Sequence record: MW883059
Direction: 5' to 3' (one strand)
Source of the DNA: Escherichia phage vB_EcoM_SYGD1
DNA length: 64,000 bases
Under the pieces are notes generated by a model that did no database searches, was not told where the DNA came from, and was given only the letters and a program-made list of their open reading frames with translations. Made by a program: the position numbers and the translations under genes. Below are positions 15,176 through 20,746 of this stretch, one piece after another; position 1 is the first letter of the stretch, and each line of letters begins with the position of its first letter.

Positions 15176-15378
15176 ATATAATTAATAAGATTTTTGGAAT
15201 TCAGTACATTAAGGTCACATATAAAGTAACGTATAAAGGTCCGTATACCGATGAACATGAAGAACCACAAGTTAAGTCTATTATATTAGAAAAGGACCCT
15301 AACTGGCCAGTTGAATTTCGTCTTCCTTGCTATGGTCATTGGGCTGATGTTGAAATTATAAGTATTGAAAATGTCTGA
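15172..15378 (+). CDS. hypothetical protein (30.4 position)
   Basis: 68-codon ORF. Confidence 0.5.
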   Translation: MNIINKIFGIQYIKVTYKVTYKGPYTDEHEEPQVKSIILEKDPNWPVEFRLPCYGHWADVEIISIENV

Positions 15379-15829
15379 GCTAGAGATAAGAAGCAATTTT
15401 AGATGGCCATCATGTGCATTAAGCAATTTCGCCCAATGGCCTTTCGTTATGGATGGTATCCAATTTGGAGGTCTCGAAGGATTCCTCCAAGGGTGTAAGG
15501 TGAAAAATGTTGAACAGCAACGTCGTATATTTGGGTTATCCGGGATTGCCGCCCAACAAGCTGGACGAGCTTATGCTAGAGCTCAGGACCGTGGGACCCT
15601 CTTCTGGCTTGGAGTTCCGTTTTCAAGATACTCCCCGGCGTGGAAAGAATTATACACAAATGCATATTTTGAAGCAGCGATCCAAAACAGGGGCTTTCGT
15701 GATGCATTACAAGCCTCGAAAGGAAAAGTTTTGAAGCACAGCATAGCTAGTGGTCTAACAAAAGATGATACAATACTAACCGAAGCTGAATTTATTGATG
15801 TGTTAAACCTACTAAGAGACTCTCTATGA
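15371..15829 (+). CDS. NADAR (YbiA-like) domain protein (30.3 position)
   Basis: 152 aa from ATG 15371; LSNFAQWPFVMDGIQF resembles the YbiA/NADAR FSNFAAWP..VDG motif. Confidence 0.7.
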   Translation: MSELEIRSNFRWPSCALSNFAQWPFVMDGIQFGGLEGFLQGCKVKNVEQQRRIFGLSGIAAQQAGRAYARAQDRGTLFWLGVPFSRYSPAWKELYTNAYFEAAIQNRGFRDALQASKGKVLKHSIASGLTKDDTILTEAEFIDVLNLLRDSL

Positions 15830-16689
15830 AGCCTACTATTTTGACTGATATTGATGGAGTATGTTTAAGCTGGCAATCAGGTCTTCCTTATTTTGCTCAG
15901 AAATATAATCTTCCGTTAGAACATATTTTAAAAATGATCCAAGATGAGAAATTTATTTCTCCAGGTAAACTCTTTAATTGTGATGAAGAACTTGGCGTCA
16001 AGTTAATTGAAAAATACAATCGTTCAGATTTTATTCGTTACTTGTCTCCGTATAAAGATGCCCTGTGTGTAATTAACAAATTAAAAGAAGATTATAATTT
16101 TGTAGCTGTTACAGCATTGGGTGATTCTATTGACGCTCTGTTGAATCGTCAATTTAATTTGAATGCTCTTTTTCCTGGTGCCTTCTCAGAAGTAATGATG
16201 TGTGGTCATGATTCTTCAAAAGAAGAGTTATTCAAAAAGGCAAAAGAGAAATATAACGTAATTTGTTATATTGACGATCTCGCTCACCACTGCGACCACG
16301 CGAGTGAAATATTAAATGTTCCGGTTTATTGGATGGCTCGAGGAGAGCGTGACAATATTCCAAAAACTGCGCAGCGAGTTTATACATGGAATGATGTAGA
16401 AAATAAGCTTTTTTCGCCGAAGGAAAATAAAGAAAGTTTTGATAGTGAAAAAGCTATAAAAGATGTAATTGAGAAGATGGTTAAAAACGATTCTTTTCGT
16501 TGGAACACTACCTGGAGAACTCCTGGATTTAATCCTTATAATCCATATTATACGCATCCATATAATCCATATTATACACACCCGTATCATATGAATCCAT
16601 TCCATACGTGGAGTTATACTAAGCCTGGCGACGCAGGGTATTTTAATAGACTTACTAGTGGTGATAATATTTTCCAAGGAGCATTCTAA
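15826..16689 (+). CDS. HAD-type 5'(3')-nucleotidase-like protein with C-terminal Pro/Tyr-rich repeat (30.2 position)
   Basis: 287 aa; N-terminal ILTDIDGV and later YIDDLAHH; C-terminal NPYNPYYTHPYNPYYTHPYHMNPFH. Confidence 0.65.
   Translation: MKPTILTDIDGVCLSWQSGLPYFAQKYNLPLEHILKMIQDEKFISPGKLFNCDEELGVKLIEKYNRSDFIRYLSPYKDALCVINKLKEDYNFVAVTALGDSIDALLNRQFNLNALFPGAFSEVMMCGHDSSKEELFKKAKEKYNVICYIDDLAHHCDHASEILNVPVYWMARGERDNIPKTAQRVYTWNDVENKLFSPKENKESFDSEKAIKDVIEKMVKNDSFRWNTTWRTPGFNPYNPYYTHPYNPYYTHPYHMNPFHTWSYTKPGDAGYFNRLTSGDNIFQGAF
16537..16584 (+). repeat. 24-bp tandem duplication inside the 15826 ORF
   Basis: TATAATCCATATTATACGCATCCA followed by TATAATCCATATTATACACACCCG. Confidence 0.7.
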
Positions 16690-16958
16690 TGTTTGTTGTT
16701 CACACTATTTATGAAAATGAAGGTAATACTACACGTGATTACGGTCACGTAAATCAATTTTTTAGATGCAATCCAGAATTCCGAGCTCAAAAAGACGAAC
16801 GAATTTTTAAAAAATGTGTAGAGCAAGGTTTCATTTACGTCAAGCACTGGATGCAAGGAAATAAAGTTAGAACTACATATCATAGGTCTTTAACTGAGCT
16901 TAATGATGAATTGATTTATAATAGAGCTGTAAACCAAACCTTGAAGGATGAGCAATGA
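16689..16958 (+). CDS. hypothetical protein (30.1 position)
   Basis: 89-codon ORF; ATG overlaps previous stop. Confidence 0.55.
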   Translation: MFVVHTIYENEGNTTRDYGHVNQFFRCNPEFRAQKDERIFKKCVEQGFIYVKHWMQGNKVRTTYHRSLTELNDELIYNRAVNQTLKDEQ

Positions 16959-18415
16959 TTCTTAAAATTCTGAATGAAATAGCATCTATTGGTTCAACTA
17001 AGCAGAAGCAAGCAATTCTTGAAAAGAATAAAGATAATGAATTGCTTAAACGAGTATATCGTCTGACTTATTCTCGTGGGTTACAGTATTATATCAAGAA
17101 ATGGCCTAAACCTGGTATTGCTACCCAGAGTTTTGGAATGCTGACCATTACCGATATGCTTGACTTCATTGAATTCACGTTAGCTACTCGGAAATTGACT
17201 GGAAATGCTGCAATTGAGGAATTAACTGGATATATCACTGATGGTAAAAAGGATGATGTTGAAGTTTTGCGTCGAGTGATGATGCGAGACCTTGAATGCG
17301 GTGCTTCAGTATCTATTGCAAACAAAGTTTGGCCAGGTTTAATTCCTGAACAACCTCAAATGCTAGCAAGTTCTTATGATGAAAAAGGCATTAGTAAGAA
17401 TATCAAATTTCCAGCCTTTGCACAGTTAAAAGCAGATGGAGCTCGGTGTTTTGCTGAAGTTCGAGGTGATGAATTAGATGATGTTCGTCTTTTATCGCGA
17501 GCTGGTAATGAATATCTAGGATTAGATCTTCTTAAGGAAGAATTAATCAAAATGACTGCTGAAGCCCGCCAGATTCATCCAGAAGGCGTGTTAATTGATG
17601 GCGAATTGGTATACCATGAGCAAGTTAAAAAGGAACCAGAAGGCCTAGATTTTCTTTTTGACGCTCCTGAAAATAGTAAAGTTAAAGACTTCGCAGAAGT
17701 AGCTGAATCTCGTACTGCTTCTAATGGAATCGCTAATAAATCTTTAAAGGGAACTATTTCAGAAAAAGAAGCCAAATGCATGAAGTTTCAGGTCTGGGAT
17801 TATGTTCCGTTAGTAGAAATATACGGTCTTCCGGCGTTTCGTTTAAAATATGATGTACGTTTTTCTAAACTAGAACAAATGACATCAGGATATGATAAAG
17901 TAATTTTAATTGAAAACCAGGTAGTAAATAACCTAGATGAAGCTAAGGTAATTTATAAAAAATATATTGACCAAGGTCTTGAAGGTATTATTCTCAAAAA
18001 TACCGATGGATTGTGGGAAAATGCTCGTTCAAAAAATCTCTATAAATTTAAAGAAGTAATTGATGTTGATTTAAAAATTGTAGGAATTTATCCTCACCGT
18101 AAAGACCCTACTAAAGCGGGTGGATTTATTCTTGAATCAGAGTGTGGAAAAATTAAAGTAAATGCAGGTTCAGGCTTAAAAGATAAAGCTGGTGTAAAAT
18201 CACATGAACTTGACCGTACTCGCATTATGGAAAACCAAAATTATTATATTGGAAAAATTCTAGAGTGCGAATGCAACGGTTGGTTAAAATCTGATGGCCG
18301 CACTGATTACGTTAAATTATTTCTTCCGATTGCGATTCGTTTACGTGAAGATAAAACTAAAGCTAATACATTCGAGGATGTATTTGGTGATTTTCATGAG
18401 GTAACTGGTCTATGA
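16955..18415 (+). CDS. 30: ATP-dependent DNA ligase
   Basis: 486 aa; adenylation motif AQLKADGARCF; MILKILNEIASIGSTKQKQAILEKN... Confidence 0.95.
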   Translation: MILKILNEIASIGSTKQKQAILEKNKDNELLKRVYRLTYSRGLQYYIKKWPKPGIATQSFGMLTITDMLDFIEFTLATRKLTGNAAIEELTGYITDGKKDDVEVLRRVMMRDLECGASVSIANKVWPGLIPEQPQMLASSYDEKGISKNIKFPAFAQLKADGARCFAEVRGDELDDVRLLSRAGNEYLGLDLLKEELIKMTAEARQIHPEGVLIDGELVYHEQVKKEPEGLDFLFDAPENSKVKDFAEVAESRTASNGIANKSLKGTISEKEAKCMKFQVWDYVPLVEIYGLPAFRLKYDVRFSKLEQMTSGYDKVILIENQVVNNLDEAKVIYKKYIDQGLEGIILKNTDGLWENARSKNLYKFKEVIDVDLKIVGIYPHRKDPTKAGGFILESECGKIKVNAGSGLKDKAGVKSHELDRTRIMENQNYYIGKILECECNGWLKSDGRTDYVKLFLPIAIRLREDKTKANTFEDVFGDFHEVTGL

Positions 18416-18649: not shown

Positions 18650-20746
18650 ATGATGGAACTTATTACAGAATTATTTGACGAAGATACTACTCTTCCGATT
18701 ACAAACTTAAATCCAAAGAAGAAAATACCGCAAATTTTTTCAGTTCATGTTGATGACGCAATTGAACAACCAGGCTTTCGTTTATGTACCTATACATCTG
18801 GAGGTGATACTAATCGCGATTTAAAAATGGGCGATAAAATGATGCATATTGTTCCTTTTACATTAACTGCTAAAGGTTCAATTGCTAAATTAAAAGGTCT
18901 CGGTCCAAGCCCAATTAATTACATCAATTCAGTTTTTACTGTTGCAATGCAGACGATGCGTCAGTATAAAATTGATGCATGTATGCTCCGTATTCTTAAG
19001 TCTAAAACTGCTGGTCAAGCTCGACAAATTCAAGTTATTGCTGATAGACTTATCCGTAGTCGTTCAGGTGGCAGATACGTCCTTCTTAAGGAACTCTGGG
19101 ATTACGATAAAAAGTATGCATATATTCTTATACATCGCAAAAATGTATCACTAGAAGACATTCCAGGAGTTCCGGAAATTAGTACAGAGCTCTTTACTAA
19201 AGTTGAATCGAAGGTCGGCGATGTTTATATCAATAAAGATACCGGAGCTCAAGTAACTAAAAATGAGGCAATTGCAGCATCTATTGCGCAAGAAAACGAT
19301 AAACGTTCTGACCAAGCTGTAATCGTTAAAGTTAAAATTTCCCGTAGAGCAATTGCACAAAGTCAGTCATTGGAATCTTCTAGATTTGAAAGTGAATTAT
19401 TCCAAAAGTATGAATCTACCGCAGCTAATTTCAATAAACCTGCTACCGCTCCTTTAATTCCCGAAGCGGAAGAAATGAAACTTGGAATTAATTCATTAGC
19501 TTCTAAAACCAAGGCAGCAAAAATTATTGCCGAAGGAACCGCAAATGAACTTCATTATGATTATAAATTCTTTTCAAAAAGTGAGGTTGATGAAGTTTCT
19601 GAAAAGATTAAAGATGTAATTCTTAATGCGATTAAAAATGAACCAACTACTTCAATAAAATGTTTAGAGAAATACGCAGCAGCCGTTAATCAACTCTTTG
19701 AAGAATATAAAGATAATTGGCTTGATAAACATAATAAAACTCGTAAAGGGCAGTCAGATGAAGTCTGGGAAGAAATAACTAAAAATTCCTGGAACGCAGC
19801 AAAAACTAAATTCCTCAAAAGAATGATTTATAGTTTTTCTGGAATTGGTGCAGGTCCAATGATTGATATTACTATTGCCCGTGATGGTTCTAAATATACT
19901 CCATCACAAAAGCGTGGCATTAGAGAGTATTGTGGTTCAGGATATACTGACATCAATAATCTTCTTTTAGGACGCTACAATCCAGAACGATATGATGTAA
20001 TGAGTGAAAAAGAAATTGAATCTGCTATAAATAACTTAGATTCAGCTTTTGAAAATGGTGACCGTATACCAGAAGGCATTACAGTTTATCGTGCTCAAAG
20101 TATGACTGCTCCTATATACGAAGCACTAGTTAAAAATAAAGTGTTCTATTTCAGAAATTTTGTATCTACTTCTTTAACTCCTATCATTTTTGGACGTTTT
20201 GGAATTACACATGCTGGTATCGGTCTTTTAGAACCAGAAGCTCGTAATGAATTAACAGTTGATAAAAATGAAGAAGGAATAACTATTAATCCAAACGAAA
20301 TAAGAGCGTATAAAGAAAATCCTGAATACGTTAAAGTTCAAATAGGATGGGCAATTGATGGAGCTCATAAAGTTAATGTTGTATATCCAGGAAGTCTCGG
20401 AATAGCAACTGAAGCTGAAGTTATTTTACCACGCGGATTGATGGTCAAAGTTAATAAAATAACTGATGCTTCTAATAATGACGGAACAACATCTAATAAT
20501 ACAAAACTCATTCAAGCTGAAGTTATGACTACGGAAGAACTCACCGAATCAGTAATTTATGACGGTGACCGTCTAATGGAAACTGGTGAAGTAGTTGCAA
20601 TGACAGATGATATTGAAATAGAAGACAGAGTTGACTTTGCATCATTTGTTTCATCAAATGTTAAACAGAAAGCAGAATCATCTCTCGGAATTATTGCGTC
20701 TTGCATAGATATTACAAACATGCCTTACAAGTTCGTTCAAGGATAA
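18650..20746 (+). CDS. alt: Alt ADP-ribosyltransferase (virion-packaged, modifies host RNA polymerase)
   Basis: 698 aa; MELITELFD... N-terminus; C-terminal ART-like YRAQ / STS / EAE elements. Confidence 0.9.
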   Translation: MMELITELFDEDTTLPITNLNPKKKIPQIFSVHVDDAIEQPGFRLCTYTSGGDTNRDLKMGDKMMHIVPFTLTAKGSIAKLKGLGPSPINYINSVFTVAMQTMRQYKIDACMLRILKSKTAGQARQIQVIADRLIRSRSGGRYVLLKELWDYDKKYAYILIHRKNVSLEDIPGVPEISTELFTKVESKVGDVYINKDTGAQVTKNEAIAASIAQENDKRSDQAVIVKVKISRRAIAQSQSLESSRFESELFQKYESTAANFNKPATAPLIPEAEEMKLGINSLASKTKAAKIIAEGTANELHYDYKFFSKSEVDEVSEKIKDVILNAIKNEPTTSIKCLEKYAAAVNQLFEEYKDNWLDKHNKTRKGQSDEVWEEITKNSWNAAKTKFLKRMIYSFSGIGAGPMIDITIARDGSKYTPSQKRGIREYCGSGYTDINNLLLGRYNPERYDVMSEKEIESAINNLDSAFENGDRIPEGITVYRAQSMTAPIYEALVKNKVFYFRNFVSTSLTPIIFGRFGITHAGIGLLEPEARNELTVDKNEEGITINPNEIRAYKENPEYVKVQIGWAIDGAHKVNVVYPGSLGIATEAEVILPRGLMVKVNKITDASNNDGTTSNNTKLIQAEVMTTEELTESVIYDGDRLMETGEVVAMTDDIEIEDRVDFASFVSSNVKQKAESSLGIIASCIDITNMPYKFVQG

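What the first reader, a model, noticed from the sequence alone, without database searches (positions are those of the whole stretch)
15826..16689. HAD-type nucleotidase-like protein with a C-terminal Pro/Tyr-rich repeat created by a 24-bp tandem duplication
The N-terminal ~180 aa carry ILTDIDGV and YIDDLAHH, resembling 5'(3')-deoxyribonucleotidase-type HAD phosphatases. The C-terminus carries ...FNPYNPYYTHPYNPYYTHPYHMNPFHTW..., encoded by two consecutive 24-bp units (16537-16560 and 16561-16584). Such a low-complexity aromatic tail on a nucleotide-metabolism enzyme is unusual, and the repeat number is likely to vary between isolates.
Basis: partly seen in the sequence, partly recalled or inferred. 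Interest (0 to 1): 0.45.

Follow-up and report, generated by a model that had tools for sequence, protein, structure and literature searches.

The report
T4 gene 30.2 phosphatase, slippery tail
This is the T4-like phage gene 30.2, a probable nucleotide phosphatase whose floppy C-terminal tail carries a short repeat present in one, two or three copies in different phage isolates.

Summary
ORF 15826-16689 (+, 287 aa) is the ortholog of T4 gene 30.2 and lies between 30.3/AdfN and 30.1/DNA ligase. Residues 1-197 are predicted with high confidence as a capped HAD phosphatase. All four catalytic motifs are conserved (D8, D10, T96, K132, D150/D151). The nearest characterised relatives are 5'(3')-deoxyribonucleotidases (NT5C), but the relationship is distant and the query itself hits no Pfam model. 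The tail (221-287) is predicted to be disordered.

The two 24-bp units (16537-16560 and 16561-16584) encode YNPYYTHP twice. This is the only tandem repeat with a TRF score of at least 50 in the 64-kb window. Relatives confirm that copy number varies: T2 has one copy, the query and about 57 other GenBank Tequatrovirus records have two, and phage BYEP01 has three. There are also many smaller in-frame indels. The repeats lie in a spacer between two tail motifs conserved across genera, W-x-x-P-G and G-I-E-Y-L-x-x-Q-P-T.

The enzymatic function is inferred, not shown, and I found no paper on gp30.2. Some GenBank records already annotate the gene as HAD or 5'-nucleotidase. This is a correct but modest finding, so interest is low to moderate.

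The parts
15826..16689 (+). CDS of the T4 gene 30.2 ortholog (287 aa plus stop)
   Evidence: ORF list. It is 97-98.6% identical at the DNA level to many Tequatrovirus records. The T4 record annotates the syntenic gene as gp30.2. PHROG 420 matches at E 3.5e-89.
15826..16416 (+). HAD phosphatase domain, residues 1-197: Rossmann-like core plus helical C1 cap
15838..15861 (+). HAD motif I, ILTDIDGV. D8 is the predicted nucleophile and D10 the predicted general acid/base.
   Evidence: D8 and D10 are invariant in 65 homologs and at least 90% conserved in 64 more distant relatives. They align to DMDGV of mouse cdN and DMDEV of 3bwv.
15871..16083 (+). Helical cap inserted after strand 1 (residues 16-86), with invariant W16, S18, Y64, S67, Y76 and D78
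   Evidence: Secondary structure of the model, invariant columns and the alignment of this segment to the cdN cap.
16111..16113 (+). HAD motif II, Thr96
   Evidence: T96 is at least 90% conserved. It lies at the end of strand 91-96 and aligns to the motif II Thr of cdN and 3bwv.
16219..16221 (+). HAD motif III, Lys132
   Evidence: K132 is invariant in A1 and at least 90% conserved in A4. It aligns to a Lys of 3bwv.
16273..16278 (+). HAD motif IV, Asp150-Asp151 (the YIDDLAHH segment)
   Evidence: Both are invariant in A1. They align to the DD of 3bwv.
16429..16485 (+). Predicted amphipathic linker helix, residues 202-220
   Evidence: DSSP on the model gives a helix, with pLDDT falling from about 85 to about 60. 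The second model shows an equivalent helix. pN/pS is 0.23 for codons 201-235.
16486..16686 (+). Predicted disordered C-terminal tail, residues 221-287
   Evidence: pLDDT is 37-61 in the query model. The equivalent region of a second model, built from a tail-bearing alignment, has pLDDT below 50. Across homologs the tails are enriched in Pro and Trp.
16513..16527 (+). Proximal tail anchor, WRTPG
   Evidence: This Trp (position 240 of P0036) is at least 90% conserved in the alignment of tail-bearing homologs from several genera.
16531..16602 (+). Zone of [N/H]-P-[Y/F] pseudo-repeats (six motifs here); hotspot of in-frame indels
   Evidence: Sixteen Tequatrovirus alleles carry 3-8 such motifs and are 276-295 aa long. 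The DNA alignment shows nested 6-, 9- and 24-bp gaps.
16537..16560 (+). 24-bp repeat unit 1 (YNPYYTHP)
   Evidence: The unit is absent from T2.
16561..16584 (+). 24-bp repeat unit 2 (YNPYYTHP)
   Evidence: BYEP01 has three units.
16627..16656 (+). Distal tail anchor, GDAGYFNRLT. This is a diverged form of the G-(T)-G-I-E-Y-L-x-x-Q-P-T motif.
   Evidence: The motif is present in 15 of 58 tail-bearing cluster representatives from several genera and aligned in A3. T4 has GGIEYLYNRPT.
16676..16691 (+). AAGGAG Shine-Dalgarno sequence and ATG of gene 30.1, embedded in the last codons of 30.2 (TAATG stop/start overlap)
   Evidence: Read from the sequence. The last 30 nt of 30.2 are identical in all nine aligned alleles.
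15365..15829 (+). Upstream neighbour, gene 30.3 = AdfN (NADAR DNA ADP-ribosylglycohydrolase). Its stop overlaps the 30.2 start (ATGA).
   Evidence: Pfam PF08010 at E 4e-70. Function is from PMC11825919.
16689..16958 (+). Downstream neighbour, gene 30.1 (DUF3045)
   Evidence: Pfam PF11243 at E 2.9e-64.
16955..18415 (+). Gene 30, ATP-dependent DNA ligase. It is the conserved downstream partner of the 30.2 family across T4-like phages.
   Evidence: Pfam PF01068. Ligase lies downstream on the same strand in 71 of 76 related loci.

Best explanation
The ORF is the ortholog of phage T4 gene 30.2. It is translated as part of a coupled 30.3-30.2-30.1-30 (ligase) gene string. Its first ~197 residues form a Mg2+-dependent HAD-superfamily phosphatase with a helical C1 cap. 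D8 is predicted to form the aspartyl-phosphate intermediate, D10 to act as general acid/base, T96 and K132 to bind the phosphoryl group, and D150/D151 to hold the metal. A closed cap and the relationship to 5'(3')-deoxyribonucleotidases point to a small nucleotide monophosphate as the most likely substrate. The enzyme would then trim or rebalance the (deoxy)nucleotide pool during infection. This is analogous to the NT5C-family dTMP phosphatase of phage PBS1.

The C-terminal ~65 residues are a disordered extension. Two short conserved anchors, W-x-x-P-G and G-I-E-Y-L-x-x-Q-P-T, flank a spacer made of [N/H]-P-[Y/F] pseudo-repeats. The DNA of this spacer is a nest of short direct repeats such as AATCCATAT. 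These misalign during replication or recombination and produce in-frame gains and losses. The 24-bp duplication in this window is one such event.

What is shown: the identity of the gene, the fold, motif conservation, predicted tail disorder, the duplication, and copy-number polymorphism. What is inferred: catalytic activity, the nucleotide substrate, the slippage mechanism, and any role of the tail anchors in binding a partner.
For: Gene identity comes from synteny and 97-98.6% DNA identity to Tequatrovirus records, with T4 annotating the syntenic gene as gp30.2.

Catalytic residues: D8, D10, K132, D150 and D151 are invariant and T96 is at least 90% conserved in 65 homologs at 34-94% identity. 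The domain has pN/pS 0.04.

Nucleotidase link: the family profile's best PDB hit is mouse cdN at E 0.047. The broader-family profile's best hit is the NT5C-family protein 3bwv at E 1.5e-6 across motifs I-IV, followed by yeast pyrimidine nucleotidase SSM1, an XMP phosphatase and mdN. NT5C is the most frequent and best-scoring Pfam family among members (14 of 65 with best E 1.2e-4; 20 of 64 with best E 4.2e-10). As a precedent, PBS1 Dtm is an experimentally shown NT5C-family (PF06941) phage dTMP phosphatase (PMC12697855).

Tail: pLDDT is low in two independent models. The anchors are conserved across genera. The 24-bp unit is present once in T2, twice here and in about 57 other records, and three times in BYEP01, where the extra unit is an exact copy. 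RPN226 has an extra 9 bp. Every length class seen in a spread sample of GenBank records differs from the query by a multiple of 3.
Confidence: 0.6

Rival explanations
1. The HAD domain is a polynucleotide 3'-phosphatase, or another DNA-end-processing enzyme, that prepares nicks for the DNA ligase encoded two genes downstream. In this reading the tail tethers it to ligase or to the replisome.
For: The 30.2 family lies upstream of the ligase gene, on the same strand and within about 2.2 kb, in 71 of 76 related loci, including very divergent T4-like phages of 160-235 kb. There is a weak PHROG hit to polynucleotide kinase, whose phosphatase domain is HAD, at E 1.2e-3. The genes are translationally coupled.
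Against: The predicted helical C1 cap (residues 16-86) encloses the active site. From general knowledge of the HAD superfamily, this is typical of small-molecule phosphatases, whereas macromolecule-directed members such as PNKP-type enzymes are capless. None of the top sequence or fold hits are end-healing enzymes. T4 already has the PseT 3'-phosphatase (my own knowledge). Gene order is broadly conserved in T4-like phages, so adjacency may reflect descent alone. A more distant relative in a jumbo phage (P0175) and the L096 locus (28% identity) have no ligase among their Pfam-annotated neighbours.
Confidence: 0.08
2. The protein is an active HAD phosphatase, but its physiological substrate is not a nucleotide monophosphate. 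Candidates are a sugar phosphate, an ADP-ribose-derived product released by the neighbouring AdfN, or a riboflavin-pathway intermediate as for YigB-type HADs.
Against: Sequence-profile evidence favours NT5C and pyrimidine nucleotidases over other HAD subfamilies. AdfN was detected next to 30.2 in only about half of the related loci, 37 of 76, so the two genes are not obligately linked. AdfN removes ADP-ribose from DNA in vitro on its own.
Confidence: 0.2
3. The repeat number is not neutral spacer noise. It is an adaptive, fast-switching character: the number of [N/H]-P-[Y/F] motifs sets the valency or reach of a partner-binding tail and is selected differently in different hosts.
For: Sixteen alleles carry 3-8 motifs. 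Only in-frame variants are seen. The three differences between the two units here are all synonymous, so the repeated peptide is preserved. The flanking anchors are conserved across genera.
Against: In-frame-only variation is also expected merely from the need to keep the distal anchor and the embedded 30.1 ribosome-binding site in place. Many family members lack a tail entirely. No partner is known. Neither model shows any ordered structure for the repeats.
Confidence: 0.1

Closest known systems
Phage T4 gp30.2 (the 278-aa 'conserved hypothetical protein' between genes 30.3 and 30.1)
   Same: It is the ortholog: same position, same neighbours, same domain and same tail architecture.
   Different: The T4 tail has four [N/H]-P-[Y/F] motifs and lacks the PYNPYYTH duplication. 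It carries the consensus distal anchor GGIEYLYNRPT, where this window has GDAGYFNRLT.
5'(3')-deoxyribonucleotidases of the NT5C family (Pfam PF06941): human and mouse cdN and mdN, and S. epidermidis 3bwv
   Same: HAD core with a helical C1 cap. Motifs D-x-D-G-V, T, K and D-D are shared. The cap segment aligns, including an aromatic residue eight positions after the nucleophile and a Y-x-x-S/P-x-F segment.
   Different: Identity is only about 15-21%. The query does not reach any Pfam threshold. NT5C enzymes lack the ~90-residue helix-plus-disordered C-terminal extension. The substrate is untested here.
Dtm of Bacillus phage PBS1, an NT5C-family dTMP phosphatase (PMC12697855)
   Same: A phage-encoded, highly divergent NT5C-like HAD that was recognised by fold rather than sequence. 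It is an experimental precedent for a phage dNMP phosphatase.
   Different: PBS1 uses it to exclude thymine from dU-DNA. By my own recollection of which T4-like phages carry unmodified cytosine, the 30.2 family is not confined to phages with modified DNA, so no comparable exclusion logic is evident. No direct sequence comparison was made here.
HAD phosphatase domain of T4 polynucleotide kinase/phosphatase (PseT)
   Same: The same superfamily and the same phage group. There is a weak PHROG 415 hit.
   Different: PseT-type domains act on nucleic-acid ends and, from general knowledge, lack a large cap. They do not appear among the fold or profile hits.

Membership tests
HAD (haloacid dehalogenase-like) superfamily phosphatases | Rossmann-like alpha/beta core of the HAD fold | tested here: met
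HAD (haloacid dehalogenase-like) superfamily phosphatases | Motif I D-x-D-x-[T/V], with the second Asp typical of phosphatases | tested here: met
   The motif is DIDGV at residues 8-12. D8 and D10 are invariant.
HAD (haloacid dehalogenase-like) superfamily phosphatases | Motif II (Ser/Thr), motif III (Lys) and motif IV (acidic pair) | tested here: met
   T96 is at least 90% conserved. K132, D150 and D151 are invariant. They align to the equivalent residues of 3bwv.
HAD (haloacid dehalogenase-like) superfamily phosphatases | Mg2+-dependent phosphoryl transfer through an aspartyl-phosphate intermediate | not testable with these tools
   This requires an enzyme assay.
NT5C 5'(3')-deoxyribonucleotidase family (Pfam PF06941) | The sequence scores above the Pfam gathering threshold for PF06941 | tested here: not met
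   The query has no Pfam family at E<=1. Family members give hits at a best E of 1.2e-4 and more distant relatives at 4.2e-10. Whether those reach the gathering score was not shown. P0023 scored 12.1 bits against a cutoff of 24.8.
NT5C 5'(3')-deoxyribonucleotidase family (Pfam PF06941) | Detectable homology to solved NT5C-family structures, including the helical C1 cap | tested here: met
NT5C 5'(3')-deoxyribonucleotidase family (Pfam PF06941) | Hydrolysis of 5'- or 3'-(deoxy)nucleoside monophosphates | not testable with these tools
   This requires a substrate screen with purified protein.
T4 gp30.2 orthologous group (PHROG 420) | Full-length profile match and conserved position upstream of 30.1 and DNA ligase | tested here: met
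   PHROG 420 matches at E 3.5e-89 over residues 1-275. Synteny is shown.
Polynucleotide 3'-phosphatase (PNKP/PseT-type HAD) | Capless HAD domain with an open active site that accepts nucleic-acid ends | tested here: not met
   The model has a ~70-residue helical cap between strands 1 and 2. The only link is a weak PHROG 415 hit at E 1.2e-3.

The most novel reading that the evidence does not exclude
The C-terminal extension may be a conserved docking tether. Its two anchors (W-x-x-P-G and G-I-E-Y-L-x-x-Q-P-T) would bind a phage or host partner, perhaps gp30.1, DNA ligase or the replication and dNTP-synthesis machinery. This would place a nucleotide phosphatase at sites of DNA synthesis or sealing. 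The slippage-prone [N/H]-P-[Y/F] spacer would then act as a rapidly evolving length or valency tuner. Two observations are compatible with a functional 30.2-30.1-ligase module: the near-universal 30.2-ligase linkage, and one metagenomic fusion of the HAD domain to a 30.1-type DUF3045 domain.
Probability: 0.12. Interest if true: 0.5.

Novelty: new member of a known kind. Interest (0 to 1): 0.25.

Why it matters
Gene 30.2 is retained across the T4-like phages sampled here: 76 IMG/VR loci, and 1,331 cluster representatives of the wider family. It is under strong purifying selection yet has no experimentally assigned function. A well-supported prediction of an NT5C-like phosphatase with intact catalytic residues gives a concrete, cheap assay to run. 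The repeat polymorphism is a small natural example of replication slippage in a phage coding region. It could serve as a strain marker. It also gives a ready-made allelic series of 1, 2 and 3 units for testing whether a disordered tail matters. None of this changes current understanding of phage biology unless the tail turns out to dock the enzyme to a partner.

Tried and rejected
- **Direct sequence annotation.** Pfam, NCBIfam and single-sequence PDB searches of the query found nothing useful. Only profiles and fold comparison worked.
- **Tail docking.** A second AlphaFold run used a homolog with the consensus distal anchor and an alignment of tail-bearing sequences. It tested whether the tail docks onto the catalytic domain. 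The tail stayed below pLDDT 50, with only a 5-residue helix at IEYLN, so there is no evidence of docking.
- **Fusion partners.** Pfam scans of long family members (P0152, P0206, P0145, P0103, P0082) found no informative second domain. P0067/P0069 (Yersinia phage phiR1-RT type) looked by eye like HAD-30.1 fusions, but BLASTP and Pfam did not support this. Only P0014 is a HAD-DUF3045 fusion, and it sits on a single 1.4-kb contig.
- **Context of distant relatives.** These loci showed replication-module neighbours (clamp-loader-like AAA, PhoH, a DNA pol III alpha fragment, MazG) or contigs too short to use. Nothing decisive emerged.
- **Functional coupling to AdfN (30.3).** I considered this because of the ATGA overlap and the AdfN paper's remark about a missing T-even factor. 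I rejected it as the main explanation because tblastn detected no AdfN homolog next to 30.2 in about half of the related loci.
- **Shared motifs elsewhere in the window.** A search for the tail motifs in other reading frames of the window found none.
- **Literature.** Searches for gp30.2 returned nothing on its function.

Full report
**What is in the sequence.** The + strand carries an ATG-initiated ORF at 15826-16689 encoding 287 aa. They differ at three positions, all synonymous third positions, and both encode YNPYYTHP. Tandem Repeats Finder reports a 24-bp period at 16532-16577 (1.9 copies, 95% matches, score 85). It is the only tandem repeat scoring at least 50 in the whole 64-kb window. 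The exact 17-nt match at offset 24 exceeds the maximum of 13 seen in 300 codon shuffles of the ORF.

**Which gene this is.** The window comes from a T4-like phage of the genus Tequatrovirus. The ORF matches 640 phage records by megablast, the best at 98.6% identity. In the T4 record the syntenic gene is annotated gp30.2, 'conserved hypothetical protein'. The local gene order is 30.3 (15365-15829, Pfam PF08010), 30.2, 30.1 (16689-16958, DUF3045), DNA ligase gene 30 (16955-18415), then Alt.1 and an Alt-like gene. The four genes from 30.3 to 30 are joined by ATGA or TAATG stop/start overlaps. PHROG 420, of unknown function, matches at E 3.5e-89.

**The N-terminal domain.** The query alone hits no Pfam or NCBIfam model, and no meaningful PDB sequence.
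- *Family alignment.* A search of the large protein collection returned 100 homologs, essentially all from T4-like phages. In an alignment of 65 of them at 34-94% identity, D8, D10, K132, D150 and D151 are invariant and T96 is at least 90% conserved. These are HAD motifs I to IV.
- *Profile searches.* The family profile's best PDB hit is mouse cdN at E 0.047, aligned through motif I, the cap and motif II. An exhaustive profile search found 1,331 cluster representatives at E<=1e-3, most about 200 aa long and without tails. A profile of 63 of these more distant relatives finds 3bwv at E 1.5e-6 over its full length, covering all four motifs. The next hits are yeast pyrimidine nucleotidase SSM1, an XMP phosphatase and mdN.
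- *Pfam by member.* Scanned member by member, NT5C is the most frequent and best-scoring Pfam family. It hits 14 of 65 close members (best E 1.2e-4) and 20 of 64 distant members (best E 4.2e-10).
- *Selection.* Among 16 Tequatrovirus alleles the domain has pN/pS 0.04.

I conclude that the domain is almost certainly an active HAD phosphatase. Its closest characterised relatives are NT5C-type nucleotidases, but it is a divergent sister group, not a scoring member of PF06941.

**The tail and the repeat.** Residues 202-220 are predicted helical and residues 221-287 have low confidence, with pLDDT 37-61. A second model was built on a homolog with the consensus tail and an alignment of tail-bearing sequences. 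It again left the tail below pLDDT 50, apart from a five-residue helix at IEYLN. Tails of at least 40 residues occur in 58 of the 97 homologs in which the tail could be measured. They are enriched in Pro (10.3% against 4.2% in the domain) and Trp (3.5% against 1.3%). They are not random. An alignment across several genera shows a proximal W-x-x-P-G motif and a distal G-(T)-G-I-E-Y-L-x-x-Q-P-T motif, with the variable Pro/Tyr/Trp-rich segment between them. In this window the anchors are WRTPG (16513-16527) and a diverged GDAGYFNRLT (16627-16656). The repeats lie between them.

**Copy number in relatives.** Aligned with phage T2, the query has a clean 24-bp insertion, so T2 carries one unit.
- A 96-bp probe spanning both units is at least 80% covered in 58 GenBank records, and the matches listed have the same length as the probe. 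The two-unit allele is therefore a minority allele, about 9% of the 640 records.
- A synthetic three-unit probe matched Escherichia phage BYEP01 over 120 of 120 nt at 97.5% identity. Translation confirms PYNPYYTH three times in a 295-aa protein. At the DNA level the extra unit is an exact copy of its neighbour.
- Phage RPN226 has two units plus an extra 9-bp AATCCATAT.
- T4, G8, EL, FelixPlatter, ESh30 and RB10 differ by nested 6-, 9- and 15-bp indels. A second small hotspot, TAGTGG, turns SG into SGSG.
- Sixteen alleles range from 276 to 295 aa and carry 3 to 8 [N/H]-P-[Y/F] motifs.
- In a spread sample of GenBank records, the region homologous to the last 250 bp measures 217, 223, 226, 229, 232, 235, 241, 247 or 250 bp. 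Every class differs from the query by a multiple of three.

The pattern fits slipped-strand misalignment among short direct repeats that encode Pro-Tyr codons, filtered by the need to keep the frame. The last 30 nt of the gene are identical in all nine aligned alleles. They contain the AAGGAG ribosome-binding site and the ATG of gene 30.1, which is one reason frame and end are preserved.

**Genomic context.** In 76 related loci from IMG/VR, DNA ligase lies downstream on the same strand within about 2.2 kb in 71. These include very divergent T4-like phages with genomes of 160-235 kb. The upstream NADAR gene 30.3 (AdfN) was detected in only about half, 37 of 76. AdfN is a DNA ADP-ribosylglycohydrolase that counters DarTG1, and its authors suggest it may need another T-even protein for full activity (PMC11825919). 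Because 30.2 is often present without AdfN, I treat that as a weak lead only. The ligase linkage may simply reflect the conserved gene order of T4-like phages. A more distant relative in a jumbo phage and a 28%-identical locus (L096) sit among replication and nucleotide-metabolism genes, with no ligase among the annotated neighbours. One metagenomic protein, P0014, fuses a tail-less HAD domain to a DUF3045 (30.1-type) domain at Pfam E 8.3e-15. It is known from a single 1.4-kb contig.

**Most likely mechanism.** The best-supported reading is a Mg2+-dependent, capped HAD phosphatase acting on a small nucleotide monophosphate, expressed as part of the 30.3-30 gene string. A precedent exists. The dTMP phosphatase of Bacillus phage PBS1 is an equally divergent NT5C-family enzyme that was recognised by fold and confirmed biochemically (PMC12697855). 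For 30.2 the substrate and physiological role remain inferred. From general knowledge of HAD enzymes, the cap argues against a DNA-end phosphatase. The tail is best read as a disordered tether whose spacer tolerates, and keeps generating, in-frame length changes. Whether its anchors bind a partner is unknown.

**Comparison with what is known, and verdict.** The gene has been in the databases since the T4 sequence. Some GenBank records already call it a 'haloacid dehalogenase-like hydrolase' or a '5' nucleotidase'. I found no paper on its function. The result is a sound annotation with a tidy example of repeat polymorphism, not a new kind of system, so interest is low to moderate.

Noticed in passing
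window 15365-15829 (+): Gene 30.3 = AdfN, the NADAR DNA ADP-ribosylglycohydrolase that counters DarTG1. It appears full length here, matching Pfam PF08010 over 1-138 of 138 positions, unlike the truncated RB69 allele described in PMC11825919. The mechanical ORF starts at a TTG. The likely true start is the ATG two codons downstream (15371), as in T4.
   Followed up: partly
window 15507-15734 (+): A 75-aa ATG ORF lies in another frame inside gene 30.3. It corresponds in position to the 'gp30.3' internal translation' CDS annotated in the T4 record, so the overlapping frame is retained in this phage.
   Followed up: no
window 16660-16691 (+): The last 30 nt of 30.2 are identical in all nine aligned Tequatrovirus alleles, third codon positions included. 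They contain the AAGGAG Shine-Dalgarno sequence and the overlapping TAATG start of gene 30.1. These codons are therefore constrained both as coding sequence and as a translation signal.
   Followed up: partly
window 16640-16665 (+) and the homologous position in L012, L013, L016, L017: There is a second slippage site in the tail. A 6-bp TAGTGG duplication turns SG into SGSG in Shfl2, T2, ES19 and EL but not in this window. Phage EL also has an extra ATCCATTCC.
   Followed up: partly
window 18650-20746 (+); L021-L024: The Alt-like ADP-ribosyltransferase gene (698 aa) is about 98-99% identical in some otherwise close relatives (L023, L024) but only about 70% identical in others (L021, L022). The flanking ligase is 98-99% identical in all four. 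This suggests allelic replacement or mosaicism at alt.
   Followed up: no
P0014 / L107 234-1142: A metagenomic protein fuses a tail-less 30.2-type HAD domain directly to a DUF3045 (gene 30.1-type) domain (Pfam E 8.3e-15). It is known from one 1.4-kb contig only. It could be a real fusion hinting at a 30.2-30.1 functional link, or a sequencing or assembly artefact.
   Followed up: partly
GenBank records listed: Public annotations of this gene and its neighbour are inconsistent. Features annotated under the match to this gene include 'prohead core protein' and 'RNA repair pathway DNA polymerase beta', although which of the three overlapped genes carries each name was not checked. A 216-aa Acinetobacter-phage homolog (P0076) is named 'DNA ligase'. 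Gene 30.1 in one T2 record is called 'secreted LysM/SCP-PR1 domain protein'. These names look like annotation-transfer errors.
   Followed up: no
window 16312-16677 (-): A 121-aa reverse-strand ORF overlaps the tail-coding region. Its Ile/Trp/Met/Arg-rich translation is simply the complement of the Pro/Tyr/His repeat, and it is most likely not a gene.
   Followed up: no
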